The translations under genes were made by a program, and so were the position numbers. Below the pieces are notes generated by a model. That model had not been told where the DNA came from, made no database searches, and worked only from the letters and a program-made list of their open reading frames with translations. Positions 1-30,390 of a stretch of 32,000 nt of DNA are shown here, in pieces. This DNA is from Vibrio vulnificus CMCP6 (lineage in GTDB: Bacteria > Pseudomonadota > Gammaproteobacteria > Enterobacterales > Vibrionaceae). The stretch is taken from positions 390,001-422,000 of the forward strand of contig NC_004460.2 in the NCBI RefSeq assembly GCF_000039765.1. The letters are read 5' to 3'. The first letter of the stretch is position 1, and each line of letters begins with the position of its first letter.

Positions 1-1479
1 GACGGCACGAGATTGCGTTAACGGGGTCCATTGCAACGCGGCTAAGTCAAATTTTTCAAGGTTCCAACCTTCACTCGATCGTTTGACACTTGCTACGATA
101 AAACGACCATCGTGAGACACGGCAAATCCACCTAACACGTCACCAATCGTGCCTTGCCAAATTTGCTGACCGATTTCTGGTTGTTGCGCATCCATTAACC
201 AAAGTTCACTGAGACCATTCACCTTACGTGTGGCTAAGTAGCGCTGGCCATCAGGGAGCCATTTAGCGCTGCGAAAACGCTGCTTCTCTGTCAACGCTTG
301 CCAACGATCATCTTGATAAAGATAAACATCGCTCAGCACGCGGCCATCTGCATAAGCGATAGAACGCGTCGCCAGCACCCCACTTTGAGGATGGAAATCG
401 AGCGAGTTGATGTTTTTCGTTTTAGTCAGTGAGTCTCCCGCGCGCTCATCACTGCCATCGCCTAACAACATCAGTTCACTCGCATCATCACCATTGTCGA
501 CATTAACCAAAACACCATGGTCCGTTGCGGTAAACACTTGCATAAATGGGGCGGTATATTTCCCCTCACCAATGACGGCTTGCTCCATCATGGTGGCAAG
601 ATCGCCTTGGTATTTCTCATATATATGAGCTTGGAAATCAGACCAAAGCTGTTCAAAATCCTTCCCAAACGTTTTTCTCGCCGTGCTGTTGAGCAAAAAG
701 AACGGAATAAGCTTGCGGCTGTAACCCTGCAAAAATTCTTGCACCTTAGCATCACCATAGCTATCGGCTAGGTATTGCACGAAATAGGCACCGTACAAAT
801 AGTTGTAGCCTAGCGGCCATTCTCTTGCTGCCACGGCAACTTGGTTGAGATCTTTCACGTCACCAGAGGCGACTTCCATTCTCATTTCCATGTCATAACC
901 AGAGCCTTGCAAGCGCCCATAGCCAGCTTGTTCATTGGTTTCCAGATAAACCGCAAGCCCTTCGAGCATAAAAGAAGGCGTCATGAGGTGAGGATAAAGA
1001 AATGGGTTGCGACCAAATATTTTACGAAAAACGTTGACCGCGCCGCCGCCCATTTCCATGTGCATGATATGCGCGTACTCATGCTTAATGAGGAGATGCA
1101 TCCACTCATCGTTATTTTCCAAGCCATTTGCTTCATCTGGTGGACTCATAATCAAACGAATTTGTGGATAAGGCACCACCGTCGCCCAACCGTTTGAATA
1201 GTCCACCTCATCGACCAACACCAATTCTGTTTTTTCTTTCGGCTCGTAACCAAAGTATGGCACCAGTTCTTTATGGGATTGTTCAGCCAAATCAAGCGCT
1301 CTTGCGGCTTGCTTTTCATGGCCATTTCTAAAGTGGATAACAAAGTGATCCGTCGATTGAGTTAACCATGTCTCGTTTGCTTGATCCCAAGCGACAGATT
1401 GCGCGTAGGCTTGAGAAGGAGTCCCTGCCCCCAAAGCGAATAGCGCGGCAAGTGAAAGTGCGAGCGGCGTATATTTCAT
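1..1479 (-). CDS. Secreted HExxH metallopeptidase-like protein with PD40/TolB-like beta-propeller repeats (partial; 3' end lies beyond the left edge)
   Basis: Absent from the ORF track because its stop is outside the window. Reading the reverse complement from ATG 1479..1477 stays open, in frame, to base 1. The N-terminus MKYTPLALSLAALFALGAGTPSQAYA looks like a Sec signal peptide. HEYAH is followed about 40 aa later by EGLAVYLE, a gluzincin-like arrangement. Later segments WLPDGQRYLATR and VSHDGRFIVASV resemble PD40 repeats. Confidence 0.75.
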   Translation of the reverse strand, partial: MKYTPLALSLAALFALGAGTPSQAYAQSVAWDQANETWLTQSTDHFVIHFRNGHEKQAARALDLAEQSHKELVPYFGYEPKEKTELVLVDEVDYSNGWATVVPYPQIRLIMSPPDEANGLENNDEWMHLLIKHEYAHIMHMEMGGGAVNVFRKIFGRNPFLYPHLMTPSFMLEGLAVYLETNEQAGYGRLQGSGYDMEMRMEVASGDVKDLNQVAVAAREWPLGYNYLYGAYFVQYLADSYGDAKVQEFLQGYSRKLIPFFLLNSTARKTFGKDFEQLWSDFQAHIYEKYQGDLATMMEQAVIGEGKYTAPFMQVFTATDHGVLVNVDNGDDASELMLLGDGSDERAGDSLTKTKNINSLDFHPQSGVLATRSIAYADGRVLSDVYLYQDDRWQALTEKQRFRSAKWLPDGQRYLATRKVNGLSELWLMDAQQPEIGQQIWQGTIGDVLGGFAVSHDGRFIVASVKRSSEGWNLEKFDLAALQWTPLTQSRAV

Positions 1480-1678
1480 AGATAATTTTCCATCAGTGCA
1501 CATAGATAAAATGAATAGAACCAAGTTAATGTACACTGTTTTATTGATTATTCATGTCCCTATTTGTATGGGAATGTATAGAGCAATCAAAAAGATGACA
1601 ACGTGCGAGCCCCTAAGAGTAGAGCAAACTCTCACGAATCAATTGAAAAAAGGAAAAAGATGAAAAGTGCTTAAATGC

Positions 1679-1706
1679 AAAAAGCCGACACTGAGTGTCG
1701 GCTTTT
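1679..1706 (-). terminator. Rho-independent terminator downstream of tRNA-Cys (hairpin flanked by A and T runs, so possibly bidirectional)
   Basis: GCCGACA-ctgag-TGTCGGC hairpin at 1684..1702. AAAAA on its left gives U5 on the minus strand, and TTTT lies on its right. Confidence 0.7.
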
Positions 1707-1714
1707 CTAAATAA

Positions 1715-1788
1715 TGGAGGCGCGTCCCGGAGTCGAACCGAGGTCCACGGATTTGCAATCCGCTGCATAGCCCCTCTGCCAACGCGCC
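1715..1788 (-). tRNA. tRNA-Cys (anticodon GCA)
   Basis: The reverse complement reads GGCGCGTTGGCAGAGGGGCTATGCAGCGGATTGCAAATCCGTGGACCTCGGTTCGACTCCGGGACGCGCCTCCA (74 nt). It has a 7-bp acceptor stem GGCGCGT/ACGCGCC, anticodon stem GCGGA/TCCGT with loop TTGCAAA, a GGTTCGA T-loop and an encoded CCA. It is close to E. coli tRNA-Cys as I remember it. Confidence 0.95.
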
Positions 1789-1826
1789 TTACTGTGTTGC
1801 CCGTGCTTGTCTCGGGAACGGGGTGC

Positions 1827-1854
1827 ACTTTAACGTATTCTCATGAGAGATCAA
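1827..1854 (-). promoter_or_regulatory. Candidate sigma70 promoter for tRNA-Cys
   Basis: On the minus strand: TTGATC (-35), 16 nt, TAAAGT (-10), then a GC-rich discriminator GCACCCC about 38 nt upstream of the mature tRNA 5' end. Pattern match only. Confidence 0.3.
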
Positions 1855-1948
1855 CTAATAATTTCGTTTCTTTGTGTTGATTGGACAATATCGGATCGAT
1901 TTGTTGCTTTGTCATACAAAGTGGTTTTAAAGCTGCCGACTCTCTTAT

Positions 1949-2022
1949 CTAGGCTCTAGGCTCTAGGCTCTAGGTTCTAGGTTCTAGGTTCTAGGTTCTA
2001 GGTTCTAGGTTCTAGGTTCTAG
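1949..2022. repeat. Heptanucleotide microsatellite: 3 x CTAGGCT followed by 7 x CTAGGTT plus a partial unit
   Basis: Counted directly. Units start at 1949, 1956 and 1963 (CTAGGCT) and at 1970 through 2012 every 7 bp (CTAGGTT), then CTAG. The array is intergenic, between the stop of the 2058..2300 gene and the tRNA-Cys promoter region. Confidence 0.95.
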
Positions 2023-2057
2023 CAATCATGATTTTCCATCATTCCATACGCAGTTCA

Positions 2058-2300
2058 TCACTTTGATTGCCAAAGATCTAAAAAATATTTTCCGTAAACC
2101 ACTTCCGTTTGCATGTGAAAAAACAGTAAAGCGCCCACCACGACCACAAATCCCCAATTGAAATAGCGATTCACTTTCGCTCTCACCCGTATATCGAATA
2201 CGGCCAATTGTATGCCCACAAGTATGAAAGGGTAACTTAGGATCAACAGTAGCAACCATCCCAGATGGGGCGAAATGGCCATGGGTTCAAAACCGATCAT
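2058..2300 (-). CDS. Small (80 aa) two-pass membrane protein, function unknown
   Basis: ORF-track ORF with AGGAG 7 nt upstream of the ATG. It has two hydrophobic stretches, GWLLLLILSYPFILVGIQLAVF and WGFVVVVGALLFFHM. The overlapping 2026..2259 ORF lacks these features. Confidence 0.55.
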   Translation of the reverse strand: MIGFEPMAISPHLGWLLLLILSYPFILVGIQLAVFDIRVRAKVNRYFNWGFVVVVGALLFFHMQTEVVYGKYFLDLWQSK

Positions 2301-2478
2301 ATGTACTCCTTGATATAAGTCACTGCTTTGGAGCGTATCAGTTTGAAATTCGGAAATTTTGTAACTTGCGGGCAGTTACGAACAAAGACTGAGTAAAACA
2401 CGCACTAATTTAATGCATTCTCAGTATGGGGACATCAGGTTGACGTAGCGGAAAATCGGAAGCCAAGAAAAACGCAAT

Positions 2479-2505
2479 AAAAAAGAGCGCTTTGAGCGCT
2501 CTTTA
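2479..2505 (-). terminator. Rho-independent terminator after the MaoC-like gene
   Basis: On the minus strand, AGAGCGC-TCAAA-GCGCTCT is followed by TTTTTT, about 25 nt after the stop at 2528. Confidence 0.75.
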
Positions 2506-2527: not shown

Positions 2528-3205
2528 TTAAAAATGGAGCTGAATAACAGAAACCACTACAGCAGCAGGACGACGAACGCCTTCGATCTCCACTTTGATT
2601 TCACGCTCTATCTCTAACCCTTTTTTGATTGGGGTTACTTTGGTCAGTGTGCTTGAAGCACGTAAGTTATTACCCGATTTCACCGGATATGGGAAACGCA
2701 CTTGGTTCAAGCCAATATTCACAACCATCTTCGCCGTCGGGAAGAGGTTATTTTCAGGATTAACTGAATCGGTCAACTTCGGCAATAGAGCTAATGTTAA
2801 AAAGCCATGAGCGATGGTGGTTTTGAATGGCGACTCTACCGCTGCACGCTCAGGATCCGTATGAATCCACTGCATGTCTTCTGTCACCAAACCAAATTGA
2901 TTGATACGCTCTTGATCAACATGAATCCAATCACCAACATGAATCACTTGACCTATTTTTTCACTTAACTCGTTGTAAACAAGCTGCGCTTCTGGTTTGA
3001 GTACGATCGGCTCAGGCAATGACACTTCTTCATTCACCGCAGGCTGCTGATGATCGCGTACTTTCGAGAAAAGAAAACTTCCTTGCGCCTTTCCTAGAAA
3101 ATCACCCCAGTACTCACGAAGAGTTGGAGACATCCAATTAATAAACTCAGAATGATGCGCAGAAAATGCGTCTACTTTGTCTTTAAATAGATTTGTGACT
3201 TTCAT
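2528..3205 (-). CDS. MaoC-like (R)-hydratase / hot-dog fold protein with an ~85-aa N-terminal extension
   Basis: The C-terminal half (GDWIHVDQERINQFGLVTEDMQWIHTDPERAAVESPFKTTIAHGFLTLALLP) matches the MaoC/NodN dehydratase signature as I know it. Confidence 0.75.
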   Translation of the reverse strand: MKVTNLFKDKVDAFSAHHSEFINWMSPTLREYWGDFLGKAQGSFLFSKVRDHQQPAVNEEVSLPEPIVLKPEAQLVYNELSEKIGQVIHVGDWIHVDQERINQFGLVTEDMQWIHTDPERAAVESPFKTTIAHGFLTLALLPKLTDSVNPENNLFPTAKMVVNIGLNQVRFPYPVKSGNNLRASSTLTKVTPIKKGLEIEREIKVEIEGVRRPAAVVVSVIQLHF

Positions 3206-3355
3206 AAAAACCTTGGTTCATAATCTTCAAACTGGCTATACCAGTTAATTTTGAATTACTTCACATAACCTTGCAAATACTTTCGGGCGCACAACTGTTA
3301 CCTCAAAGTCAAATAATCCATTAAAAACATAACGATAGAAATAAAACACTATTTT

Positions 3356-3371
3356 ATTGTCTTTAGACAAT
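3356..3371. promoter_or_regulatory. Inverted repeat ATTGTCT-tt-AGACAAT (candidate operator) in the MaoC / kinase divergent intergenic region
   Basis: Perfect 7-bp arms with a 2-bp spacer, read directly. No known regulator assigned. Confidence 0.3.
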
Positions 3372-3701
3372 ACGAGTAAAAACTCTAGTTTTATTTACTA
3401 TTTTGCGTATTTTTGTGCGGTCACAAGTATGCAAAGCCCCTTTCATCACCAAATAATTACGTTCAAATAACATGCCAAACAGCGAGCGAGCTGTTTTCAT
3501 CCTGTAAACAAGAGAAAAACCGCTTTGATTAACCCAATATTACTCGCACATTCGAGCTCATATATTGAGAACTTTATCAAGTAGTTATTGATTTGAGATA
3601 CAGAAAACAAGATCCTTATCAAGCCTCGTTGCATGCGTAATTGAACGGATGTCCAAGATAAGAGAAACTTGTTGTATAACAGTAATTATAGTGATGTTGA
3701 A

Positions 3702-6700
3702 ATGATTAGCTTTGCGGACTTACGTATTCGTCCTAAATTGATTGCCCTCTTAATAATTTTTGGCATTTTACCCATGGTTTGCGTCACCCTTTTCAGTGGC
3801 CGCATGGCATCGGAAGCCCTAATAAAAAAATCCTTCCAAGAATTGCTTGCTATTCAGACGCTAAGAAGCGCCTCGATTGATACCTTTTTTGAAAAACGAT
3901 TACTCGATATTGGCACTTTAGCAGGCACAGACGAGCTGCGCGATTTCGCGACGGGGTTAACGACAGGGGTTAGCGTCAACTACTCGATTGAAGAAGTCGA
4001 AGACTCTGTGATCAGCTCTTTCACCAGCGCCTATGATTACAATGATTTTTTCGTACTCTCCCCAGACAAAGGAAAGATCCTCTACGCTCTGCACGATAAA
4101 AGCCGCATCAATGCGAACAGCTTAAGCTACGAAAACACCGATCCGTCACTGGCGAAAGTGTGGGCCAAAACCGTGGCAAAGAGCACGACATATTTTACTG
4201 ATTTTGCAAAAAGTAAAGCGGCACAAGGGCAATATGTTGCCTACTTTTCTGCCCCAATCCTCGATCACGACGGCAATTTGATTGCCATTGCAGCCATGCA
4301 AGTTTCCCCACAGTTGGTGACTAAAATCGTCGACTCGCGAGTCGGAATGGGTGAAACGGGCGAATCGTACCTTTTGGGTCTCGACGCCACCAGCAATCAA
4401 TTTACCCTGCGCTCTGACATCGTTACCATGGGCAATGGCCGCTATGTGGTTGGCTTTAGACTTGGCTACGATCTCGACTATTGGACAGATGCCCGTTCAG
4501 CAGGTGACACCGGAGGCCAAGGCACATACATCGACAGTGCTGGCCGCCCTGTTCTGGTCACATTTAACCGTATTCAAGTACCCGGCTACGATTGGTATTT
4601 GATCTCAAAGATCAATCAAGATGAAGTCACCACACCAATTACTCGCATCTATCAAGCACTGACCATTATTACTGCGATGATTTTTGTGTTGATCTGTTTT
4701 GTTGCGATCAAATTCTCCAACTCCGTAACTTCGCCCTTGTTGGCCAGTATGGATTTTGCGCAGCACATTGCCAAAGGAAAGCTCGATTCCTCGCTGACCA
4801 TTGATAGAAAAGATGAACTCGGTGAGTTAGGGAGTTCACTCAATAACATGGCTTCACAGTTGCGTGATCTTGATTGGCTAAAATCGGGGAAAGAAACGCT
4901 AGATAATGAACTTCGTGGCGATATTGAGCTGAGCGAGCTGTCTAACCGATTTATTCGTTTTTTCACGCGTCATCTGAATGCCCAATTGGGCGCCTTCTAT
5001 CTCTTCGAGAATGGGCAGCTTGAGTTGAATGCTTCCTACGCGTTTTCTGATCGCGCCGGTAATTTCAATCGCATTCAAATTGGCGAAGGAATGGTTGGCC
5101 AAGCCAGCTTGGAGCAGCAAGTGATTGCGTTTAACCATGTTACAGACGAGGCACCCGTTTACAACTTCGCCGCGGGTGATTGCGTTCCAACGCATTTCTT
5201 AGCCATTCCACTGTGTGTGGATAAGCAACTGATCGGCACTGTGTTACTCGGCGCTTTCCATGAATTTTCCCCTATTCAGAGACGCTTTATTAACGAAGTC
5301 GTGGGCAATTTGGCTATCGTTTTCAACGCCACAAAAGCGCGTTTAGTGATTAAATCCCTGCTTGAAGAGACGCAACAGCAAAAAGCACATCTCAGCAAAG
5401 CGAATGAAGATCTCGAAGCGCAAACACAGGCACTGCGCGTTTCGGAAGAAGAACTGCAAGCGCAGCAAGAAGAACTTCGCGTCACTAACGAAGAGCTAGA
5501 AGAGCAAACCAAAGTTCTGCGTGCTTCTGAAGCGGAGCTGCAAGCGCAACAAGAAGAACTGCGTGTAACCAATGAAGAGTTGGAAGAGCGCACTAAAGCG
5601 CTAGAATCGCAACAAGTAGAAATGAAGGAGAAAAACGAGGCACTTCATCAGGCGCAACTTGTTGTCGAAGAGAAAGCCAAAGAGCTGGAAATTGCCAGCA
5701 AATATAAGTCTGAGTTTTTGGCCAACATGTCCCATGAACTTCGTACTCCGCTAAACAGCATCCTGATTTTGTCTCAGTTGTTTGCCAATAACAAAGACGG
5801 CAACTTAACAGCGAAGCAGATTGAATCAGCCAAAGCCATTAACTCATCGGGCTCAGACCTTCTTTCCCTAATCAATGAAATTCTTGACCTATCAAAGGTT
5901 GAGGCAGGCAAGATCGATCTGCACATTGAAGACGTGCCCCTACAAACGGTGGAACAAGATCTTCTGAGACTTTATCAAGACATCGCCGATGATAAAGGTT
6001 TGGACTTCCAAGTGATTTGCGCACCAAACTTGCCACAAACGCTTGAAACAGACGCTCAGCGTTTACAGCAAATCTTGCGCAACTTACTGACCAACGCCTT
6101 CAAGTTTACGCACGAGGGTGCCGTGACATTGAATATGGCCTTGCCTTCTCCTGAACAAGCGAAGCTGCTCGATAAACCTCGTGAAGCGTTGATCGCATTC
6201 TCTGTCAAAGACGACGGCATTGGCATTAAACAAGAGCAGCAGTTGGCTATCTTCCAAGCCTTCCAGCAAGCCGATGGCAGTACCAGTCGTAAATATGGCG
6301 GTACAGGGCTAGGTCTGTCGATTTCGAAAGAGTTGACGCATTTACTTGGCGGACGTATTCACCTCAAGAGCGAAGAAGGAAAAGGCAGCATCTTTACGGT
6401 GATCTTCCCTACTCGTTATGAAGTCAAAGAGTCTGAATCGCAACCGACCCTATCGCCGATTAGCTTAGCTCCAATGGAGCCAATGGACGTTGTTGAACGC
6501 GAAGAGCCAACACCTCCTGCTCAAGATGCACCCTCTGTTGAAAAAGAGCCCGTTCCCCAATTGAATGGATTCAAAAAAGCGGACAGCATCAAACAGGACA
6601 ACGATAGCTATGTCGAAGATGACCGACAAACCGTGGTGCCAGAAGATCGTACTTTGTTGATCATTGAAGATGATCGTGCGTTCGCCAGCGTTATGCGTGA

Positions 6701-7814
6701 TTTTGGCCGCGAACGTGGCTTCAAATGCATTGTGGCGGAAACCGGAGAAACAGGCCTGCACTTTGCTCAGTACTATAAGCCCAGCGCCATCATTCTTGAT
6801 ATCGGCCTACCTGGCATCGATGGCTGGACCGTCATGGAGCGACTCAAAGAAAACCCTGAAACGCGCCATATCCCGGTTCATTTTATGTCTGCCAATGACG
6901 CAAACCTCGATGCACTGCGCATGGGAGCAATCGGCTACCTAACCAAACCAGTCGATATGAAAAAGCTCGAAAAAGCGTTTGGTAATATCGAAGATATTCT
7001 CTCTAAACCCGTAAAACGTTTGTTGGTGGTTGAAGATGACGCCATCCAACAAGAGTCTATTCGCCAGCTAATCGGTGAAGATGACATTCATATCGTAGCG
7101 GTTCCAACTGGTGAAAAAGCACTCGAAGAATTGGAGTCCAATCGCTACGACTGCATGGTGTTGGATCTGGGCTTAGAAGACATGACCGGTTTTGAGCTAC
7201 TTGAACGTATTCGTCGAAGTGAAACGGCAGCTCGAGTACCGATTATCGTCTACACCGGACGCGAGTTAAGTAAAGAAGAAGAGCGTGAACTCAATCGCTA
7301 TGCAGAGAGCATTATTATTAAAGGGGTGAAGTCACCAGAGCGTCTTTTGGATGAGTCTGCCCTCTTCCTGCACCGTGTAGAAGCTAACTTGCCTAGTGAG
7401 CAACGCGGTATTTTAAGAGCCGTGCACAACAAAGAGTCCGTCTTAACGGGCAAGAAAGTCTTGCTGGTGGATGATGATATGAGAAACGTCTTCGCGCTAT
7501 CGAGCATTCTTGAAGATAAAGGAATGGATATTGTGATTGCACGCGATGGCGTAGAGAGCCTAGACAAGCTCAAAGAAAACCCAGACATCGATGTGGTGCT
7601 CATGGACATCATGATGCCGAAGATGGACGGTTATGAAGCAATGGAAGAGATCCGCAAACAAAAAGTGTATGAAAAGCTGCCTGTCATTGCTTTAACGGCG
7701 AAAGCCATGAAAGGCGACAGAAGCAAGTGCATCGAAGCGGGCGCAAGTGATTATTTAGCGAAACCGGTCAATACCGATAAGTTACTTTCAATGTTAAGAG
7801 TCTGGTTGTACTGA
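3702..7814 (+). CDS. Hybrid sensor histidine kinase: TM - periplasmic Cache-like domain - TM - HAMP - GAF - long coiled coil - HisKA/HATPase - three tandem receiver domains
   Basis: The ORF track opens at TTG 3669; I prefer ATG 3702 (MISFADLRIRPKLIALLIIFGILP, a typical sensor N-terminus). The second TM is ALTIITAMIFVLICFVAIKF. H-box is FLANMSHELRTPLNS (His codon 5733..5735), N-box is LRNLLTNAFKFT, and G-boxes are DDGIGI and GGTGLGLSISK. The three REC domains each keep the acidic pair, phospho-Asp, Thr/Ser and Lys: LLIIEDD...IILDIGLPGIDG, LLVVEDD...MVLDLGLEDMTG, VLLVDDD...VLMDIMMPKMDG. Confidence 0.9.
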   Translation: MISFADLRIRPKLIALLIIFGILPMVCVTLFSGRMASEALIKKSFQELLAIQTLRSASIDTFFEKRLLDIGTLAGTDELRDFATGLTTGVSVNYSIEEVEDSVISSFTSAYDYNDFFVLSPDKGKILYALHDKSRINANSLSYENTDPSLAKVWAKTVAKSTTYFTDFAKSKAAQGQYVAYFSAPILDHDGNLIAIAAMQVSPQLVTKIVDSRVGMGETGESYLLGLDATSNQFTLRSDIVTMGNGRYVVGFRLGYDLDYWTDARSAGDTGGQGTYIDSAGRPVLVTFNRIQVPGYDWYLISKINQDEVTTPITRIYQALTIITAMIFVLICFVAIKFSNSVTSPLLASMDFAQHIAKGKLDSSLTIDRKDELGELGSSLNNMASQLRDLDWLKSGKETLDNELRGDIELSELSNRFIRFFTRHLNAQLGAFYLFENGQLELNASYAFSDRAGNFNRIQIGEGMVGQASLEQQVIAFNHVTDEAPVYNFAAGDCVPTHFLAIPLCVDKQLIGTVLLGAFHEFSPIQRRFINEVVGNLAIVFNATKARLVIKSLLEETQQQKAHLSKANEDLEAQTQALRVSEEELQAQQEELRVTNEELEEQTKVLRASEAELQAQQEELRVTNEELEERTKALESQQVEMKEKNEALHQAQLVVEEKAKELEIASKYKSEFLANMSHELRTPLNSILILSQLFANNKDGNLTAKQIESAKAINSSGSDLLSLINEILDLSKVEAGKIDLHIEDVPLQTVEQDLLRLYQDIADDKGLDFQVICAPNLPQTLETDAQRLQQILRNLLTNAFKFTHEGAVTLNMALPSPEQAKLLDKPREALIAFSVKDDGIGIKQEQQLAIFQAFQQADGSTSRKYGGTGLGLSISKELTHLLGGRIHLKSEEGKGSIFTVIFPTRYEVKESESQPTLSPISLAPMEPMDVVEREEPTPPAQDAPSVEKEPVPQLNGFKKADSIKQDNDSYVEDDRQTVVPEDRTLLIIEDDRAFASVMRDFGRERGFKCIVAETGETGLHFAQYYKPSAIILDIGLPGIDGWTVMERLKENPETRHIPVHFMSANDANLDALRMGAIGYLTKPVDMKKLEKAFGNIEDILSKPVKRLLVVEDDAIQQESIRQLIGEDDIHIVAVPTGEKALEELESNRYDCMVLDLGLEDMTGFELLERIRRSETAARVPIIVYTGRELSKEEERELNRYAESIIIKGVKSPERLLDESALFLHRVEANLPSEQRGILRAVHNKESVLTGKKVLLVDDDMRNVFALSSILEDKGMDIVIARDGVESLDKLKENPDIDVVLMDIMMPKMDGYEAMEEIRKQKVYEKLPVIALTAKAMKGDRSKCIEAGASDYLAKPVNTDKLLSMLRVWLY
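5433..5600 (+). repeat. In-frame tandem duplication of a 28-aa (84-nt) coiled-coil unit inside the kinase
   Basis: Unit 1 (5433..5516) is LRVSEEELQAQQEELRVTNEELEEQTKV. Unit 2 (5517..5600) is LRASEAELQAQQEELRVTNEELEERTKA. Each unit is four heptads, and the two copies differ by many synonymous changes. Confidence 0.9.
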
Positions 7815-7815
7815 T

Positions 7816-8655
7816 ATGGAAAGCGTCACTGAATTGTCAAACGAACAACTGGAAATTCAGTTGTTACTTGAAGCGATATACCGCAAATATGGCTACGATT
7901 TTCGTGAATATTCGCTTGCCCATACCAAGCGTCGATTAGAGTATCGACGCGCCATCGAGGGCATGTCGAATTATTCGCAAATGCAGCACAAAGTGATCAA
8001 TGAGCCGCGATTCTTCGACCAAATGCTGTTGGACTTATCCATCAACGTCACCGAAATGTTCCGTGACCCTTGGTTCTATCGACGAGTGCGAGAGGTGATC
8101 ATCCCGCACTTGCAAACCTACCCTTTTGTCAAAGTGTGGCATGCCGGCTGCTCTGCTGGGCAAGAAGTGTACTCAATGGGCATTTTGTTGGAAGAAGAAG
8201 GCATGAAGGATCGCGCGCAAGTCTACGCGACCGATTTCAACGAAGCGATTTTAGAGAAAGCCAAGCAAGGCATTTACCCGATGGACCTGATTCGTCAGTA
8301 CACGGCCAACTACCAAGCTGCCGGGGGAAGTGCTTCGTTTTCCGACTACTATACGGCGGATTACGACAGCGTAATCATGAAGACAGCCCTGAGAGAGAAA
8401 ACTTTGTTTACCCCTCACAATTTGGCGACCGATGGCGTTTTTGGGGAAATGAATGTTATATTCTGCCGAAATGTATTGATCTACTTTAACCGTGAGCTTC
8501 AAGACCGCGTTTTTCGTCTGTTTTACGACAGTTTGATGCCGGGGGGCTTCCTGTGTCTTGGCTCTAAAGAATCAATGCGTTTTTCTTCTATCGCGGACAA
8601 GTTTGATCTGGTCTCCGAAAAAGAAAAGATCTATCGCAAGAAACGGATAAGGTAA
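7816..8655 (+). CDS. CheR-type protein-glutamate O-methyltransferase
   Basis: The ATG lies 1 nt after the kinase stop. CheR hallmarks are present: NVTEMFRDP, VWHAGCSAGQEVYSMGILL (SAM-binding), IFCRNVLIYF. Confidence 0.88.
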   Translation: MESVTELSNEQLEIQLLLEAIYRKYGYDFREYSLAHTKRRLEYRRAIEGMSNYSQMQHKVINEPRFFDQMLLDLSINVTEMFRDPWFYRRVREVIIPHLQTYPFVKVWHAGCSAGQEVYSMGILLEEEGMKDRAQVYATDFNEAILEKAKQGIYPMDLIRQYTANYQAAGGSASFSDYYTADYDSVIMKTALREKTLFTPHNLATDGVFGEMNVIFCRNVLIYFNRELQDRVFRLFYDSLMPGGFLCLGSKESMRFSSIADKFDLVSEKEKIYRKKRIR

Positions 8656-8657
8656 GC

Positions 8658-9239
8658 ATGGATTGTTGTAGGCACAAATATGAAGCAGTGGTAATCGGGG
8701 CATCCGCTGGAGGATTGGCCGCCGTTGCAACGGTATTACAGCAACTTAAGGATTCATTTTGTATCCCTATTTTGTTGGTTCAGCATATCAGTGCCTCTCC
8801 TGAGAGTTACATTGCCGCCCATTTTGATAGCAAGAGCCATTTGTCGGTCCATGAGGCAGAAGACAAGCAGCCAATCAAAAACGGCAACATGTACATCGCA
8901 CCACCCAATTACCATATGATGATAGAGACCGATGGTTGTATCGCACTGTCGGTCGATCCGCCCGTCAATTTTTCACGGCCTTCCATCGACGTGCTGTTCG
9001 AAACGGCGGCTGATTATTATAGAAACGCGTTGATCGGTATCGTATTGACAGGCGCTAATTCCGACGGTGCTTTAGGTCTCAAAAAAATCAAAACACTGGG
9101 TGGACTAACTCTAGTCCAATCCATTGATAGTGCAGAAGCGAAAGCCATGCCTGCTGCGGCCATGGCTGCCGTTGATGTCGACCACATCCTTTCTTTGGAA
9201 GAGATTGGTCATTATTTAAATACTTTATGTGATTGCTGA
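8658..9239 (+). CDS. CheB-type protein-glutamate methylesterase/glutaminase, catalytic domain only (no receiver domain)
   Basis: The ATG lies 2 nt after the CheR stop. At 193 aa it is the size of the CheB C-terminal domain alone. Catalytic-triad contexts are present: IGASAGG (Ser), LLVQHIS (His), LTGANSDGALG (Asp). Confidence 0.85.
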   Translation: MDCCRHKYEAVVIGASAGGLAAVATVLQQLKDSFCIPILLVQHISASPESYIAAHFDSKSHLSVHEAEDKQPIKNGNMYIAPPNYHMMIETDGCIALSVDPPVNFSRPSIDVLFETAADYYRNALIGIVLTGANSDGALGLKKIKTLGGLTLVQSIDSAEAKAMPAAAMAAVDVDHILSLEEIGHYLNTLCDC

Positions 9240-9241
9240 AC

Positions 9242-10258
9242 ATGCCTGATAAACCAACCCTACTCATCGTTGATGACAAAATCGAAAACCTACTGACTTT
9301 AGAAGGTTTACTAGAGTGCTTTGATGTCAATTTGGTGCGTGCCACGTCAGGCGAAGAAGCGCTTGCTCATACCTTAGACCACGACTTTGCCCTGGTCTTG
9401 CTTGATGTACAAATGCCAAACATGAATGGCTTTGAAGTCGCCGAGTTGATGCGAGGGAATCGCAAGACGCGCAATATCCCAATTATCTTTGTCACAGCCG
9501 CATCCAAGGCCGATGAACACATTTTTAAAGGGTATGAGCATGGCGCTGTTGATTACTTATTAAAGCCGCTGAATACCCTGGTGTTTCAAAGTAAGGTGCG
9601 TGTTTTTCTCGAGCTTTACGAGCAGCGACATGCACTTAAGAAAAAAACCTTAGAGTTCGATCAGAAATTGGCCGAATTGGAAGAGTTGCAGCAGCAACTC
9701 GAAGAGACCAACGAACAATTATTATTGCTGTCAACCACAGACAGTTTAACAGGCCTGAACAACCGCCGTCGTTTTGAAGAGATATTCCAAGACGAATGGC
9801 ACCGCTCACAACGTTCAAGTGTCCCTATTTCGATGATCATTTTTGACATAGACCACTTTAAGAAATACAACGACACCTTTGGCCATCAACAAGGCGATGA
9901 GTGCTTACGTATGATTGCGGAAGCCATTCGTAGCATGAAGCTTCGCTGTCTCGACAAAATCGCGCGCATTGGCGGTGAAGAGTTTGCCGTAATATTGCCT
10001 GAAACGGAAATGGAAGGCGCGAAACACGTTGCTAACCGCATTCGCACCACGATAGAAGAGCTAAGTATTACCCATAGTCATCATGCAACCTTGCCATACG
10101 TAACGGCAAGTCTCGGCGTTTGCTCCATCGTGCCAGAAATCGACACCAATCCACGGTTGCTTCTGAAAAAGGCCGATGAAGCCTTGTATCGCGCCAAACG
10201 TACTGGCCGCAATCGCATTGCCGAAGCGCAGTTTGATGAGTTGTACGAACAGATCTAA
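9242..10258 (+). CDS. Response regulator - coiled coil - GGDEF diguanylate cyclase (GGEEF active site, RxxD I-site)
   Basis: I prefer ATG 9242 (MPDKPTLLIVDD), 2 nt after the CheB stop, over the track's TTG 9233. REC motifs are LLDVQMPNMNG, FVTAA and YLLKP. The cyclase has RCLD-KIARI-GGEEF at 9944..9985. Confidence 0.9.
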   Translation: MPDKPTLLIVDDKIENLLTLEGLLECFDVNLVRATSGEEALAHTLDHDFALVLLDVQMPNMNGFEVAELMRGNRKTRNIPIIFVTAASKADEHIFKGYEHGAVDYLLKPLNTLVFQSKVRVFLELYEQRHALKKKTLEFDQKLAELEELQQQLEETNEQLLLLSTTDSLTGLNNRRRFEEIFQDEWHRSQRSSVPISMIIFDIDHFKKYNDTFGHQQGDECLRMIAEAIRSMKLRCLDKIARIGGEEFAVILPETEMEGAKHVANRIRTTIEELSITHSHHATLPYVTASLGVCSIVPEIDTNPRLLLKKADEALYRAKRTGRNRIAEAQFDELYEQI

Positions 10259-10282
10259 CTCGCGTTTTCTTTGTGTACATTG

Positions 10283-10301
10283 AGGGGCTGCGGCCCCTTT
10301 T
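10283..10301 (+). terminator. Rho-independent terminator closing the kinase-CheR-CheB-cyclase operon
   Basis: AGGGGC-tgcg-GCCCCT followed by TTTT, about 25 nt after the stop at 10258. Confidence 0.65.
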
Positions 10302-10483
10302 CTATGCTTTTTCTCTTCTTATTTCTTTGCCTATCCATCACCGCTCTTGTCACTCTCGCGTTTGGCCTTAACTTACTCCCTTACAACAAATTCTCACCAT
10401 TCGAGAAAAAGATAAATTTATTTCATTCCTTTTCCTATCTAATAAGAATTATATTTGTGTTATAGATTTGTACACGATAAAAA

Positions 10484-11221
10484 ATGATGAAAGACAACAA
10501 GATGAACGCCAATCAGGTTAATGAGAAAACCCTACAACTGCTGATGCAGGTTGCGGTGAACGACGAGCCCGTTTCAGCCAAGACCTTAAGTGAACAGCTT
10601 GCTGTTCCGCTCAGCAGCTTGTATCGCCATTTAAAGCTCCTAAAAGAGTGGAACCTGATTGAAGAAAGTGCCCATGAAAAAACCTTTATCGTGGGACCCG
10701 CCGCGTTACTTTTGATGCGTAGTTACCAAACGTCTCAACACAGTCTTGAATCTGTCGAGACAATTTTGGCGCGTTTGCAGCATCAAACCGGCGAGTTGGC
10801 GGCGTACATGGTGCCCGTGGGTTATCGCGCTTTGTGCGTTCGTCAAAAAGAGAGTATGCAGGCGCTACGCTGTAGCTACGTCCAGGGTCAAAGTCAACCT
10901 CTACTGCGTGGCGCCTCATCGAAAGTCATGTTGGCATTTATGCCACCTGAACGATGTGAAAGGATTTTACGCTACTTCGGCCAAGAAGCTCGTCTAAACG
11001 AGTGGCAAACCGAATTAGAGATGATTCGTAAAAACGGTTATGCCGTCAGCACATCAGAAATCGATCCCGGCGTGTCTGGCATCAGCGCCCCGGTAATGAA
11101 AGGAAGTAAATTGATCGGAGCGGTTTCCGTCATGGCTCCAGCTCATCGAGTTGAAGCGGATAAGCAGCGTATCATTTTACATGTTTTGCAGGCAGCGAGA
11201 GCGCTTCCACCAGAAAGGTAA
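10484..11221 (+). CDS. IclR-family transcriptional regulator
   Basis: It has an N-terminal winged HTH (AKTLSEQLAVPLSSLYRHLKLLKEWNLI) and a C-terminal IclR-type effector domain (GISAPVMKGSKLIGAVSVMAP). The exact start is uncertain because there is no clear RBS. Confidence 0.8.
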   Translation: MMKDNKMNANQVNEKTLQLLMQVAVNDEPVSAKTLSEQLAVPLSSLYRHLKLLKEWNLIEESAHEKTFIVGPAALLLMRSYQTSQHSLESVETILARLQHQTGELAAYMVPVGYRALCVRQKESMQALRCSYVQGQSQPLLRGASSKVMLAFMPPERCERILRYFGQEARLNEWQTELEMIRKNGYAVSTSEIDPGVSGISAPVMKGSKLIGAVSVMAPAHRVEADKQRIILHVLQAARALPPER

Positions 11222-11228
11222 TGCAGTC

Positions 11229-12065
11229 ATGTTAGGCTTTTTCAAACGCTATCAAAAGAACCATACAGTTCAACATCATCACTATCCGTACTCGTTTATC
11301 ACCGTCAGTGAGTACATCAAACCGATGACATTAGTAGAGTTTGAATCTGCCCAACAGAGCTTAGAAAACGCAAGCGAATGGCTTTATCAGAGCCATCAAA
11401 AGCGCAATATTGCGCTGTGCTCACATTTTAGTCATCACGATGTCGAAAACGGGCATTATCAAGAAACGTTGAGTCAAATGGTCTCGCGCCATGCCATCCC
11501 TGTCGTGTTGACCAATTGCCATGAAACTCTGCTCTCTGCCCTACCCGTCGTACTGGCAGGACATGAAGAGGTTGGTTTAATGAACATCAACCACAACATG
11601 GGACTGAAATCGACGCTGGATGTGAAGTTAGGTTCCGCCTACCATTTTGCGCTCACTCGCTACCCAAACAGCCGAGCGTTTTTTGTTGGCGTCAGTCAAG
11701 AATCAACTGCAAACGAGCTGTTTGAGTACGCGGAAGATCTCGGGTCCAATTGGCTTACGGAGAAAGAATTTTCTTTCCGTCATCGTTATGATGTGAAAGA
11801 ACAAATTGGGAACTTTATCGACCATTGTGACAAGCTCGTTCTCTCTATCGATTTGGCTTCTCTTGTCACCAAAGCCAATATTGATAATCACCATACACTG
11901 GATATTCAAATGGTACTGAGAACGCTGCGCCAATGTATTGTTTCTGGCAAAGTGTCACTCATTCAGTTGATTGGCTCTCGCGATGGCTTGATTTTCTCAA
12001 GAGAGTGCAAAGCGATCTTAGAAGAATTGGAGCAGCTTACTGAGTTTGCTCATCATGCAGCCTAA
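11229..12065 (+). CDS. Arginase/agmatinase/formimidoylglutamase-fold-like protein with degenerate metal-ligand motifs (function unknown)
   Basis: The start is moved to ATG 11229 (MLGFFKRY), 7 nt after the IclR stop; the track's 11151 start overlaps IclR. The motif order and spacing resemble ureohydrolases: PVVLTNCHE for xGGDHS, MNINHNMG for DAHxD, LSIDLASLV for SxDxDxxD. Most acidic ligands are replaced. This is a by-eye alignment only. Confidence 0.45.
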   Translation: MLGFFKRYQKNHTVQHHHYPYSFITVSEYIKPMTLVEFESAQQSLENASEWLYQSHQKRNIALCSHFSHHDVENGHYQETLSQMVSRHAIPVVLTNCHETLLSALPVVLAGHEEVGLMNINHNMGLKSTLDVKLGSAYHFALTRYPNSRAFFVGVSQESTANELFEYAEDLGSNWLTEKEFSFRHRYDVKEQIGNFIDHCDKLVLSIDLASLVTKANIDNHHTLDIQMVLRTLRQCIVSGKVSLIQLIGSRDGLIFSRECKAILEELEQLTEFAHHAA

Positions 12066-13392: not shown

Positions 13393-13759
13393 TGAGCGTT
13401 TCCTTAAACAGACAATAATGGTTCGCCGATACAAATGGCCGCACATTCTACATGAAAATGAGTGATATATCTCAATCTAGTGAAAATTTTTTAGGATTTT
13501 GAAAAATACGCTTCCCTGATTCTAAATGGTTCTGCGGCAAATGGGTCAAATTTGGTGCAATTCACCACCGCAGACACATTCTTCAACAATTAATCGGCCC
13601 AAAAACACAGAACAACAAACGGTATAGTATTGATTATTGGTCAGACCTCATGGTTAAATTCGGCCCATAAAAACAATACAAAACAATACAAAACACAAAA
13701 TATAAACACTATTTTTCGCTTACTGCCATTGTTTCCATTAAGTTTGTAGGAAATTTTAG

Positions 13760-16747: not shown

Positions 16748-16754
16748 CCATAAT

Positions 16755-16784
16755 AAAAGCCAGTGATGAAAATCACTGGCTTTT
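16755..16784. terminator. Bidirectional rho-independent terminator between convergent genes
   Basis: AAAA-GCCAGTGAT-gaaa-ATCACTGGC-TTTT, read directly. Confidence 0.8.
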
Positions 16785-16803
16785 CACGCAATTCATTGAC
16801 TTT

Positions 16804-24560: not shown

Positions 24561-24563
24561 CGC

Positions 24564-27047: not shown

Positions 27048-27057
27048 GCGTTTGTCC

Positions 27058-27900: not shown

Positions 27901-27911
27901 AGTGCCGACTC

Positions 27912-28880: not shown

Positions 28881-28907
28881 AACGACTCCTTGTTATTCAT
28901 TGATGCG

Positions 28908-30269: not shown

Positions 30270-30280
30270 CGATTTTCTCC

Positions 30281-30353: not shown

Positions 30354-30390
30354 AGATTCGCCATTCAACAATGTGTCTAAATAAAGCTAT

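What the first reader, a model, noticed from the sequence alone, without database searches (positions are those of the whole stretch)
3702..10258. CheR and a receiver-less CheB embedded in a histidine-kinase-to-diguanylate-cyclase operon with no MCP, CheA or CheW
Four genes are packed with gaps of 1, 2 and 2 nt between each stop and the next ATG. A long AT-rich upstream region precedes them and a terminator follows at 10283. Together they look like one transcription unit: hybrid kinase (Cache-HAMP-GAF-coiled coil-HisKA/HATPase-REC-REC-REC), CheR, CheB catalytic domain, REC-GGEEF.

In established chemosensory systems, including the Wsp c-di-GMP pathway, CheR and CheB act on a methyl-accepting chemoreceptor that signals through CheW and CheA. 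None of those three is present anywhere in these 32 kb. The parsimonious inference is that the kinase itself is the methylation/demethylation substrate. That would give a two-component c-di-GMP pathway a chemotaxis-style adaptation (memory) module.

I know this gene association is seen in genome surveys, and CheB-CheR fusions to kinases exist. I am not aware of a mechanistic description of this architecture, and I cannot check the literature here.
Basis: partly seen in the sequence, partly recalled or inferred. Interest (0 to 1): 0.85.

Follow-up and report, generated by a model that had tools for sequence, protein, structure and literature searches.

The report
Kinase with built-in methylation coil (MAC2)
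This four-gene operon is a member of the "methyl-accepting coiled-coil" (MAC2) class of signalling systems, first named from genome comparisons in 2010: a sensor kinase carries its own glutamate-rich methylation helix and is partnered with a private CheR/CheB pair, here driving a c-di-GMP cyclase, and nobody has yet tested it biochemically.

Summary
Four + strand genes (3702-10258) lie 1, 2 and 2 nt apart, and a terminator-like hairpin follows at 10282-10300. They encode:
- a dCache-HAMP-GAF-coil-HisKA/HATPase-REC×3 kinase
- CheR
- a 193-aa CheB catalytic domain with no receiver
- a REC-GGEEF protein

No MCP, CheW or CheA is in the window.

The GAF-to-HisKA linker consists of heptads of the form x-x-[N/Q]-E-E-L-x (…ELQAQQEELRVTNEELEEQ…, two full 28-aa repeats). 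This motif is conserved in 68 kinases next to CheR plus stand-alone CheB, from more than 8 phyla. Linker length varies only by whole heptads in 64 of 65 cases.

This matches the MAC2 class of Wuichet & Zhulin (2010), which is included in MiST3. [quoted passage not shown] The Pseudomonas putida cfcABCDE cluster (CfcA kinase) appears to be a studied member, but methylation was never examined there.

The GGDEF output is a minority variant (14 of 80 loci); REC-kinase outputs dominate.

Verdict: a new member of a known, biochemically untested kind. Methylation itself remains inferred.

The parts
3206..3701 (+). AT-rich intergenic region upstream of the kinase gene; presumed promoter region
   Evidence: GC is 0.386 in 3001-4000. 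The sequence was read. The consensus scan found no + strand sigma-70-like site, so the promoter is inferred only.
3702..7814 (+). MAC2-type hybrid sensor histidine kinase, 1370 aa: TM - dCache_1 - TM - HAMP - GAF - methyl-accepting-type coiled coil - HisKA/HATPase - REC1 - REC2 - REC3; no HPt domain
   Evidence: Pfam and NCBIfam; sequence. Orthologues with the same architecture are in L001 and L003-L006.
3861..4376 (+). Periplasmic dCache_1 sensor domain (aa 54-225), flanked by hydrophobic segments at about aa 12-32 and 320-345
   Evidence: Pfam gives 36.7 bits, below the 45-bit cut-off. The domain is unmarked in orthologues. The hydrophobic segments were read from the sequence. The ligand is unknown.
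4758..5324 (+). HAMP (aa 353-389) and GAF (aa 409-541)
   Evidence: GAF directly precedes the coil in 68 related kinases.
5355..5627 (+). MAC region (aa 552-642): a continuous heptad-phased coiled coil with Q/E pairs. One degenerate repeat (aa 561-580) is followed by two full 28-aa repeats: SEEELQAQQEELRVTNEELEEQTKVLRA (aa 581-608, nt 5442-5525) and SEAELQAQQEELRVTNEELEERTKALES (aa 609-636, nt 5526-5609). Candidate CheR/CheB sites: Q588/Q589/E590/E591, E597/E598, E600/E601, Q616/Q617/E618/E619, E625/E626, E628/E629.
   Evidence: Alignment of 68 kinases. Heptad composition: Leu 78% at one position, Glu 56% and 51% at the two positions before it. Per-column conservation of 90-100% for the Q, E and N residues. 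DNA repeat of 84-bp period at 5433-5589, 80% matches. No Pfam family covers the region.
5706..6413 (+). HisKA (aa 669-736; phospho-accepting His678 = nt 5733-5735 in SHELRTP) and HATPase_c (aa 784-904)
   Evidence: The distance from the coil's anchor Leu to this His is congruent mod 7 in 64 of 65 kinases.
6648..7796 (+). Three receiver domains: REC1 about aa 983-1095, REC2 about aa 1105-1232 with a conserved C-terminal extension ERLLDE..LFLH, REC3 aa 1253-1365
   Evidence: In 70 kinases each position is its own orthologous REC subfamily and keeps the acidic pocket, the Asp, the Thr/Ser and the Lys.
7816..8655 (+). CheR-type SAM-dependent glutamate methyltransferase (279 aa; CheR_N + CheR)
   Evidence: Pfam E = 5.8e-40. 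It aligns to solved CheR structures 5ftw and 1af7, with the GCSxGxExY and CRNVxIYF motifs kept. It is 92% identical to the V. cidicii orthologue.
8658..9239 (+). Stand-alone CheB catalytic domain (193 aa; methylesterase/deamidase) with no receiver domain
   Evidence: Pfam E = 7e-56. It aligns to the catalytic domains 6ymz, 3sft, 1chd and 1a2o. Ser16, His43 and Asp136 are invariant in the family alignment. The top 120 database relatives are all 109-224 aa (all but two 182-224) and carry PF01339 only.
9242..10258 (+). Response regulator-diguanylate cyclase (338 aa): REC (aa 8-112, Asp55), helical stalk, GGDEF (aa 165-325; GGEEF 244-248 = nt 9971-9985; I-site R235xxD238)
   Evidence: The REC ends with the motif VFxELYxQ+, which is shared by the partner regulators of other MAC2 loci whatever their output domain.
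10282..10300 (+). Intrinsic-terminator-like hairpin with a T-rich tail, closing the operon

Best explanation
The locus is a MAC2 chemosensory-like system: a two-component pathway in which receptor, methylation helix and kinase are one polypeptide.

Shown:
- The four genes, their domains and their catalytic motifs.
- Their co-conservation across phyla.
- The conserved heptad-phased Q/E coil between GAF and the phospho-accepting His.

Inferred mechanism:
1. An unknown periplasmic ligand binds the dCache domain.
2. The signal passes through TM2, HAMP and GAF into a continuous parallel coiled coil that runs straight into the DHp helix carrying His678, and so sets autokinase activity.
3. Phosphate goes to Asp55 of the REC-GGEEF protein, which then makes c-di-GMP. 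The three C-terminal receivers act as an internal sink, relay or regulatory sites.
4. CheR methylates the solvent-exposed Glu pairs of the coil. CheB demethylates them and deamidates the encoded Gln pairs. CheB lacks its inhibitory receiver, so it is presumably constitutively active.
5. Changing the charge on the coil changes its packing and biases the kinase. If, as in MCPs, each enzyme prefers one signalling state, this gives slow negative feedback (adaptation or memory) on c-di-GMP output without CheA, CheW or a separate MCP.
For: Anatomy and catalytic competence:
- Domains and motifs.

A conserved cassette in unrelated contexts:
- The four-gene order is the same in Vibrio cidicii, Shewanella atlantica, Pseudodesulfovibrio and Desulfoluna.
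- The Desulfobacterota copies are closer to the window than the Pseudomonas copy is, so the cassette moves as a unit.

Survey of 80 loci from many phyla:
- CheR lies directly upstream of stand-alone CheB in 75.
- A GAF-coil-HK-REC×3 kinase is present in 62, and adjacent in 60. Most of the remaining loci are on cut contigs.
- MCP is present in 3 and CheW in 0.

The coil:
- Its motif is conserved at 90-100% for surface Q, E and N residues, from Bacteroidota to Proteobacteria. That is far more than a coiled coil needs.
- Anchor-to-His length takes the values 76 to 153 aa, and 64 of 65 are the same mod 7.
- Glu-Glu sits just before the single core Leu of each heptad.

The motif travels with CheR/CheB in other architectures:
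- The same kind of xxEELxx heptad run occurs in a protein with CheB and CheR fused to it (L031 8013-11668, MAC1 type).
- It also occurs in a second kinase next to another CheR (L080).

Sensor modules are of MCP type (dCache_1, 4HB_MCP_1, CHASE3, HAMP) and swap freely on a constant core.

Literature:
- The MAC1 and MAC2 classes are defined as receptor plus kinase in one protein, with fused or associated CheB/CheR (PMC6943060; bioRxiv 10.1101/2022.05.07.491037).
- Some proteome clusters have MAC systems and seemingly no other chemotaxis system.
- P. putida cfcABCDE has the same layout. CfcA His496 is needed for the activity of the cyclase CfcR. A chemotaxis role for its CheR/CheB is reported as ruled out (PMC4951495).

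Established knowledge, from memory and not checked here:
- Removing CheB's receiver domain activates the esterase.
- Exact adaptation in E. coli does not require CheB phosphorylation.
Against: - No methylation or deamidation data exist for any MAC protein.
- The strict MCP methylation consensus [ASTG]2-x2-[EQ]2-x2-[ASTG]2 is absent from the kinase. Only the relaxed form EExx[AV][ST] occurs, at residues 590 and 618.
- The coil has no detectable sequence homology to MCPsignal.
- NEEL-type motifs also precede the H-box of REC-kinases in the same loci, so the motif alone does not prove methyl acceptance.
- In P. putida, mutants in the other cfc genes kept the c-di-GMP colony phenotype (unpublished remark in PMC4951495). 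CheR and CheB are therefore at most modulators.
- There is no HPt domain, so the route from kinase to cyclase and the roles of the three receivers are unknown.
- The host is probably a Vibrio with many MCPs elsewhere in its genome.
Confidence: 0.62

Rival explanations
1. The CheR/CheB pair serves ordinary MCPs encoded elsewhere in the genome. It is an extra adaptation pair for a subset of chemoreceptors, placed under control of this operon's promoter. The kinase coil is not a substrate.
For: - Vibrio relatives have many MCPs. In V. cidicii a PAS-MCP lies 1.4 kb upstream of the cassette.
- CheR and CheB are clearly homologous to chemotaxis enzymes.
Against: - That MCP is absent from the window, with no remnant. 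MCPs occur in only 3 of 80 surveyed loci.
- The pair is tied to one kinase core and one coil motif across phyla.
- Some proteome clusters carry MAC components and seemingly no other chemotaxis system.
- The P. putida homologues are reported to have no role in chemotaxis.
Confidence: 0.08
2. CheR and CheB act inside the cassette but on a different target: the receiver domains of the kinase, or the helical stalk of the response regulator. They would tune phosphotransfer or cyclase dimerisation rather than kinase activity.
For: - The regulator's stalk (KLAELEELQQQLEETNEQL) is Q/E-rich and conserved in the closest cassettes.
- REC2 has a strongly conserved unexplained extension, ERLLDE..LFLH.
- The partner receiver is conserved while outputs vary.
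Against: - The stalk motif is confined to the dCache/GGDEF sub-family. Its Glu pairs follow the Leu rather than precede it (by reading).
- Most MAC2 loci have REC-kinase partners without such a stalk.
- The only Q/E motif common to all loci is the kinase coil.
- MAC1 proteins fuse CheB and CheR to the coil-bearing protein itself.
Confidence: 0.1
3. The coil is simply a conserved signalling helix. The CheR/CheB pair does something other than reversible adaptation. Possibilities are one-off maturation by deamidation, coupling kinase output to SAM availability, or a scaffold role with little catalysis.
For: - No biochemical data exist.
- P. putida cfcB-E mutants kept the colony phenotype.
- CheB has no phosphorylation-controlled domain, so one classical feedback arm is missing.
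- In one locus the cassette abuts luxS and pfs, genes of the SAH-recycling route.
Against: - The catalytic residues of both enzymes are invariant across phyla.
- A methyltransferase and an opposing esterase are retained together in 75 of 80 loci, which is what a reversible cycle predicts.
- Encoded Gln-Gln next to Glu-Glu mirrors MCP sites.
Confidence: 0.18

Closest known systems
MAC2 class of methyl-accepting coiled-coil systems (Wuichet & Zhulin 2010, Sci Signal 3:ra50; profiles in MiST3)
   Same: - Receptor and kinase functions sit in one protein.
- Separate CheR and CheB genes are associated with it.
- There is no CheA, CheW or MCP.
- The distribution is wide and patchy.
   Different: Nothing in kind. 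This member has a dCache_1-HAMP input and a REC-GGEEF output, which is a minority output (14 of 80 loci, against 46 with REC-kinase). I could not read the 2010 paper or run the MiST profile, so the match rests on the secondary descriptions and on anatomy.
Pseudomonas putida cfcABCDE / CfcA-CfcR (PMC4951495; bioRxiv 10.1101/2024.11.25.625174)
   Same: - The core is the same: GAF - coil - HisKA/HATPase - three receivers, followed by CheR, then CheB, then a REC protein. The Pseudomonas locus L076 shows this layout, and it matches the published descriptions.
- The output is c-di-GMP synthesis through a phosphorylated REC-cyclase.
   Different: - CfcA has a CHASE3 sensor.
- Its in-cluster partners are a REC-kinase and a single REC.
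- The cyclase CfcR (REC-GGDEF-EAL) is encoded elsewhere in the genome.
- The papers I could read on CfcA do not link it to MAC2 or to methylation.
- I did not have the KT2440 sequence itself.
Wsp system (WspA-F, WspR) of Pseudomonas
   Same: CheR and CheB homologues sit in a pathway that ends in a REC-GGDEF cyclase and controls c-di-GMP.
   Different: Wsp has a true MCP (WspA), CheW-like proteins, a CheA-type kinase and a CheB with a receiver. None of these is present here.
MAC1 proteins (CheB-CheR-coil-PAS-kinase fusions)
   Same: They have a heptad run of xNEELxx units, combined with CheB (no receiver), CheR and a HisKA kinase (L031 8013-11668).
   Different: - The enzymes are fused to the substrate protein.
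- The coil lies before PAS domains, not directly on the DHp helix.
- There is no GAF and no triple receiver.
Canonical MCP methylation helices (Tar/Tsr type)
   Same: - Heptad-spaced Glu/Gln pairs lie on a long coiled coil.
- Gln is encoded next to Glu.
- CheR and CheB are the modifying enzymes.
- The sensor modules (dCache, 4HB, HAMP) are of the same kinds.
   Different: - There is no MCPsignal domain and no hairpin tip for CheA/CheW.
- The strict site consensus is absent.
- The coil appears to be a single continuous parallel helix feeding a DHp domain.

Membership tests
MAC2 (methyl-accepting coiled-coil, type 2) | Receptor-type input and a histidine-kinase core in one polypeptide | tested here: met
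   dCache_1, HAMP, GAF, HisKA and HATPase_c are all in one 1370-aa protein.
MAC2 (methyl-accepting coiled-coil, type 2) | A coiled-coil segment with conserved Glu/Gln pairs as presumed methyl acceptor | tested here: met
   aa 552-642 form heptads xx[N/Q]EELx. The Q, E and N residues are 90-100% conserved in 68 kinases. Actual methyl acceptance was not tested.
MAC2 (methyl-accepting coiled-coil, type 2) | CheR and CheB encoded as separate, associated genes | tested here: met
   CheR is at 7816-8655 and CheB at 8658-9239, 1-2 nt from their neighbours. The association holds in 75 of 80 loci.
MAC2 (methyl-accepting coiled-coil, type 2) | Score above threshold on the MiST3 MAC2 profile HMM | not testable with these tools
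   The profile exists but is not in Pfam, NCBIfam or any other library offered. Pfam finds no family for the coil.
MAC2 (methyl-accepting coiled-coil, type 2) | Independence from CheA, CheW and MCP | tested here: met
   None is in the window. In the surveyed flanks MCP occurs in 3 of 80 loci and CheW in none. The rest of the genome cannot be seen.
Canonical chemosensory pathway (including Wsp/ACF class) | MCP with MCPsignal domain, CheW and CheA-type kinase (Hpt, H-kinase_dim, CheW-like P5) | tested here: not met
Canonical chemosensory pathway (including Wsp/ACF class) | CheB with an N-terminal receiver phosphorylated by CheA | tested here: not met
   The protein is 193 aa and has CheB_methylest only. 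It scores 156 bits against NCBIfam CheB cut-offs of 293-342. All 120 top relatives lack a receiver.
MCP methylation site | Consensus [ASTG][ASTG]xx[EQ][EQ]xx[ASTG][ASTG] (recalled from Alexander & Zhulin 2007) | tested here: not met
   A regex over the whole kinase gives no hit. The relaxed form [EQ][EQ]xx[ASTGV][ASTG] hits at 590 and 618, inside the coil.
Active diguanylate cyclase response regulator (PleD/WspR type) | Receiver with phospho-acceptor Asp, GG[DE]EF active site, RxxD I-site | tested here: met
   Asp55, GGEEF 244-248 and R235xxD238 are present. It scores 252 bits on the PleD-family model, below that model's equivalog cut-off of 474. It is therefore of this type but not a PleD orthologue.
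P. putida Cfc system | CHASE3-GAF hybrid kinase followed by CheR, CheB, REC-kinase and REC | tested here: not met
   The window kinase has dCache_1 instead of CHASE3 and a REC-GGDEF partner. The Cfc layout is seen in L076 and L083. The two share a core and belong to the same class, but they are not orthologous operons.

The most novel reading that the evidence does not exclude
The coil between GAF and the phospho-accepting His is a length-tunable "methylation rheostat".
- It would consist of one to four or more heptad-phased blocks of Gln/Glu pairs.
- A private CheR and an always-on, receiver-less CheB would write and erase them.
- This would give an ordinary HisKA kinase integral-feedback adaptation with no CheA/CheW array.
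- The same module could plug into c-di-GMP cyclases, or into second kinases, in at least eight phyla.

If true, chemotaxis-style memory is a portable add-on for two-component systems. CfcA of P. putida would then be the first genetically tractable example, although it has not been recognised as such.
Probability: 0.4. Interest if true: 0.7.

Novelty: new member of a known kind. Interest (0 to 1): 0.4.

Why it matters
MAC systems are widespread. Here they appear in Vibrio, Shewanella, Pseudomonas, Desulfobacterota, Bacteroidota, Alphaproteobacteria, Chloroflexota, Acidobacteriota, Planctomycetota, Nitrospirota, Cyanobacteria and Firmicutes. Yet no experiment has tested whether a histidine kinase can be reversibly methylated for adaptation.

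Showing this would extend sensory adaptation from chemotaxis arrays to plain two-component and c-di-GMP signalling, and so to biofilm decisions.

This window adds no new concept. The analysis does give concrete test sites (the Gln/Glu pairs at aa 588-591, 597-601, 616-619 and 625-629). It gives a structural rule: the linker changes only by whole heptads. It also suggests that the already studied CfcA kinase belongs to the class.

Tried and rejected
Papers I could not obtain:
- Wuichet & Zhulin 2010 (PMC3401578, PMID 20587806), García-Fontana 2013 (PMC3696673) and Tagua 2022 (DOI 10.1111/1462-2920.15891) are not held.
- What I say about them comes from papers that cite them, or from memory where marked.

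Literature searches for experimental work on MAC methylation found nothing.

Papers that turned out not to bear on this locus:
- The Caulobacter HmrABCX paper mentions CheB only in connection with ordinary chemotaxis.
- The V. furnissii AsrK (dCache kinase / AI-2) paper never mentions CheR, and its response regulator is a c-di-GMP phosphodiesterase, not a cyclase. I did not check the asrK gene neighbourhood.

Searches and tests that gave nothing useful:
- Looking up Beggiatoa protein P0108 gave no contig.
- The coil has no Pfam or MCPsignal homology, only chance coiled-coil hits.
- The strict MCP methylation consensus is absent.
- I considered that the MCP next to the V. cidicii cassette might survive as a pseudogene in window 1-2500. 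tblastn found nothing.
- Pairwise-identity correlation between CheB, CheR and the kinase core across 67 loci was only modest (rho 0.23-0.49), because most pairs sit in a narrow 45-60% band. I use only the ranking of the closest relatives.

Not attempted:
- Structure prediction of the coil.

Full report
**1. The observation**

The hybrid kinase runs from ATG 3702 to the stop at 7814. CheR is at 7816-8655, CheB at 8658-9239 and the response regulator at 9242-10258. The gaps between each stop and the next ATG are 1, 2 and 2 nt.

Upstream lies a 496-bp intergenic stretch in the most AT-rich kilobase of the window (GC 0.386). Downstream, a G+C-rich hairpin with a T-rich tail sits at 10282-10300. 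The consensus scan found no + strand sigma-70-like site upstream, so the promoter is assumed rather than seen.

- The kinase has dCache_1, HAMP, GAF, HisKA, HATPase_c and three receivers. The dCache_1 match is weak here at 36.7 bits, but it is unmarked in orthologues.
- CheR has CheR_N plus the SAM-binding domain.
- CheB has the catalytic domain alone, in a 193-aa protein.
- The response regulator is REC-GGDEF, with GGEEF at 244-248, an RxxD I-site at 235-238 and Asp55.

Both enzymes look catalytically competent. CheB aligns to solved CheB catalytic domains, and Ser16, His43 and Asp136 are invariant in its family. CheR aligns to solved CheR structures with its SAM motifs intact.

No ORF of 80 aa or more in the 32 kb has an MCP, CheW or CheA domain. 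tblastn with MCP, CheW and CheA probes found only the kinase's own ATPase fold.

**2. Related loci**

The 120 closest database relatives of this CheB all carry the methylesterase domain alone. All but two fragmentary entries are 182-224 aa. The named ones come from Vibrio, Shewanella, Photobacterium, Psychromonas, Ferrimonas, Desulfovibrio, Pseudodesulfovibrio, Desulfoluna, Desulfobulbus and Beggiatoa.

Four of them were looked up with Pfam-annotated neighbours: V. cidicii, S. atlantica, Pseudodesulfovibrio sp. and Desulfoluna spongiiphila. All show the same four-gene cassette, in the same order and with near-identical gene sizes, inside completely different genomic contexts. The V. cidicii locus is syntenic with the window at about 77% DNA identity.

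I then scanned one genome per species with a CheB-family alignment. This returned 80 loci from many phyla. I annotated them with domain probes cut from the window proteins and obtained these counts:
- CheR lies directly upstream of the stand-alone CheB in 75 of 80 loci.
- A kinase with the core GAF - coil - HisKA/HATPase - REC-REC-REC is present in 62, and is adjacent on the same strand in 60.
- Most of the other 16 counted loci are on cut contigs or have frameshifted kinases. In two further loci (L048, L080) my ORF caller did not resolve a stand-alone CheB.
- Gene order is kinase-CheR-CheB in 44 loci and CheR-CheB-kinase in 16; the latter order is seen in the Bacteroidota-type loci.
- MCPs occur within 10 kb in 3 loci, and CheW in none.
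- The partner regulator is REC-kinase in 46 loci and REC-GGDEF in 14.

The cyclase output seen here is therefore a minority variant. The partner's receiver ends with the same motif (VFxELYxQ+) whatever its output domain.

The sensor end of the kinase swaps freely: dCache_1, CHASE3, 4HB_MCP_1 plus HAMP, HAMP alone, or nothing. These are the input modules typical of chemoreceptors.

**3. The coil**

The unexpected result is the linker between GAF and HisKA. In the window kinase, aa 552-642 read as follows:

…LLEETQQQKAHLSKANEDLEAQTQALRV SEEELQAQQEELRVTNEELEEQTKVLRA SEAELQAQQEELRVTNEELEERTKALES QQ…

That is one degenerate repeat followed by two full 28-residue (four-heptad) repeats. At DNA level this is an 84-bp period at 5433-5589 with 80% matches.

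Aligning the linkers of 68 kinases gives the consensus ELq.QQEELr..NEELeeQ…Lk.s…l..QQeEL..tNEELEE.t..LE. Conservation per column is remarkable for surface residues of a coiled coil compared across phyla:
- Q588 96%; E590 and E591 94%.
- N596 and N624 100%.
- Q616 98% and Q617 94%; E619 98%.
- E628 88% and E629 93%.
- Glu and Gln interchange at positions 600, 610 and 626.

Counting back from the phospho-accepting His, each heptad has one Leu (78%). Glu occupies the two positions just before it (56% and 51%), and a polar Asn/Gln/Thr occupies the other presumed core position.

The number of residues from a conserved Leu at the start of the coil to the His takes the values 76, 83, 90, 97, 104, 111, 118, 125, 132 and 153. 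In 64 of 65 kinases this number is the same modulo 7. The coil therefore gains and loses whole heptads only. The simplest reading is a single continuous helix, in register with the DHp helix that carries the His.

The same kind of heptad run (…ANEEIVS SNEEFQT LNEELET SKEEIEA TNEELIF…) occurs in a Flavobacterium protein whose N-terminus is a fused receiver-less CheB plus CheR. It also occurs in a second dCache kinase next to another CheR.

**4. Comparison with what is known**

This is the MAC class. [quoted passage not shown]

A 2022 preprint (10.1101/2022.05.07.491037) makes four relevant points:
[quoted passage not shown] - Some proteome clusters seem to have MAC systems only.

The window locus meets every MAC2 feature I could test. 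I could not read the 2010 paper or run the MiST profile.

One member appears to have been studied without being recognised as MAC2. P. putida cfcABCDE starts with the CHASE3/GAF hybrid kinase CfcA, which has three receivers. It is followed by a CheR (cfcB), a CheB (cfcC) and a receiver protein (cfcD). The Pseudomonas locus L076 in my survey has exactly this layout, including the coil.

What is reported for that system:
- CfcA His496 is required for c-di-GMP synthesis by the REC-cyclase CfcR.
- A chemotaxis role for CfcB and CfcC is stated to have been ruled out.
- Mutants in the other cfc genes kept the colony phenotype.
- CfcA forms envelope-associated foci.
- Neither of the two CfcA papers I read mentions methylation of the kinase.

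**5. How it most likely works**

Shown:
- The anatomy of the four genes.
- The catalytic residues of both enzymes.
- The co-conservation of the cassette.
- The heptad-phased Q/E coil.

Inferred:
- Ligand binding at the dCache domain is relayed through HAMP and GAF into the coil, and so to the DHp helix, setting autokinase activity.
- The phosphoryl group activates the REC-GGEEF cyclase.
- CheR methylates the exposed Glu pairs.
- The receiver-less CheB is presumably always active, because removal of CheB's receiver is known to activate the esterase (my knowledge, not checked here). It demethylates those pairs and deamidates the encoded Gln pairs.
- The resulting charge change biases coil packing and kinase output.
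- If each enzyme prefers one signalling state, as in MCPs, this yields adaptation.

Unknown:
- The roles of the three conserved receivers, each of which keeps its Asp.
- The role of the conserved REC2 extension.
- The phosphotransfer route, given that no HPt domain is present.

Evidence against:
- There are no biochemical data.
- The strict MCP site consensus is absent.
- The coil has no sequence homology to MCPsignal.
- NEEL-type motifs also precede the H-box of some REC-kinases.
- The enzymes are dispensable for the P. putida end-point phenotype.

**6. Rival explanations**

(a) The enzymes serve MCPs encoded elsewhere. This is unlikely, given the phylum-wide coupling to one kinase core and the reported P. 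putida result.

(b) They modify the receivers or the regulator's stalk. The stalk's Q/E motif is confined to one sub-family and has a different register.

(c) The pair has a non-adaptive role. Retention of both opposing enzymes in 75 of 80 loci argues for a reversible cycle, but this rival cannot be excluded without experiments.

**7. Verdict**

The locus is a new member of a known kind that has not been tested biochemically.

What this analysis adds:
- Candidate modification sites.
- The whole-heptad rule for linker length.
- The orthology of the three receivers across the class.
- The spectrum of output domains.
- The apparent identity of the Cfc system with MAC2.

Interest is moderate at 0.4. 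A specialist would not be surprised, but the open question of whether a histidine kinase adapts by methylation is real and directly testable at the sites listed.

Noticed in passing
window 1-2500: About 2.5 kb with no convincing ORF; the longest candidates are 84 and 118 aa and have no Pfam hit. A single tRNA-Cys (GCA) lies at 1715-1788 on the - strand. In the syntenic V. cidicii locus this position holds a PAS-MCP and a dCache_3-HAMP-GGDEF-EAL gene, and tblastn finds no remnant of the MCP here.
   Followed up: partly
window 13475-16828 (gene 13760-16747, +): A 995-aa DUF6701 protein lies between the DEAD-box helicase and the cobW-like gene. This segment is absent from the otherwise collinear V. 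cidicii locus, so it is an insertion or deletion difference.
   Followed up: no
window 9242-10258, regulator aa 141-163 (nt 9662-9730): The stalk between REC and GGDEF (KLAELEELQQQLEETNEQLLLL) is Q/E-rich and superficially resembles the kinase coil. It is nearly identical in the closest cassettes (L001, L003-L006, L011) but not in more distant REC-GGDEF partners. Its Glu pairs follow the Leu rather than precede it. It could be a second substrate, a docking helix, or a coincidence.
   Followed up: partly
window 7014-7397 (kinase REC2, aa 1105-1232): The second receiver carries a C-terminal extension, siiiKg.kS.ERLLdE..LFLH, that is conserved in all 70 MAC2-type kinases compared. Each of the three receivers is its own orthologous subfamily and keeps the phospho-acceptor Asp. 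Their function is unknown. One of them might regulate the receiver-less CheB in trans.
   Followed up: partly
L031 296-11668 (Flavobacterium xanthum): One locus holds both a MAC2 set (CheR, CheB, kinase, REC-kinase) and, directly downstream, a MAC1-type fusion protein (CheB-CheR-heptad coil-PAS-kinase, 8013-11668).
   Followed up: partly
L080 16521-20501: A second CheR lies next to a dCache kinase whose pre-H-box coil is NEELGSMNQELQAQSEELQSQAEELRSQAEELQEQNQQLEIQNEQ. No CheB was detected beside it. This may be a CheR-only MAC variant.
   Followed up: no
L004 11599-12785 (Pseudodesulfovibrio sp.): The cassette is immediately followed, on the opposite strand, by luxS and a pfs-like nucleosidase gene. 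These are the enzymes that recycle S-adenosylhomocysteine, the by-product of CheR. The arrangement was seen in one locus only.
   Followed up: no
window 18652-20616 (-) and 21025-24147 (+): A second, unrelated c-di-GMP gene (TPR-GGDEF, 654 aa) lies 8 kb downstream. Beyond it is a 1040-aa protein with only a weak thrombospondin type-3 repeat hit.
   Followed up: no
window 11151-12065 (+): A 304-aa ORF after the IclR-family regulator has no Pfam family. A 278-aa counterpart, also without Pfam hits, sits at the same place in V. cidicii.
   Followed up: no
window 24237-31119 (-): A nitrate/nitrite assimilation cluster: a nirD-like Rieske gene, nirB-like nitrite reductase, an ABC transporter (ATPase, permease, NMT1_2 binding protein) and an ANTAR regulator. 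It is ordinary and unrelated to the finding.
   Followed up: no
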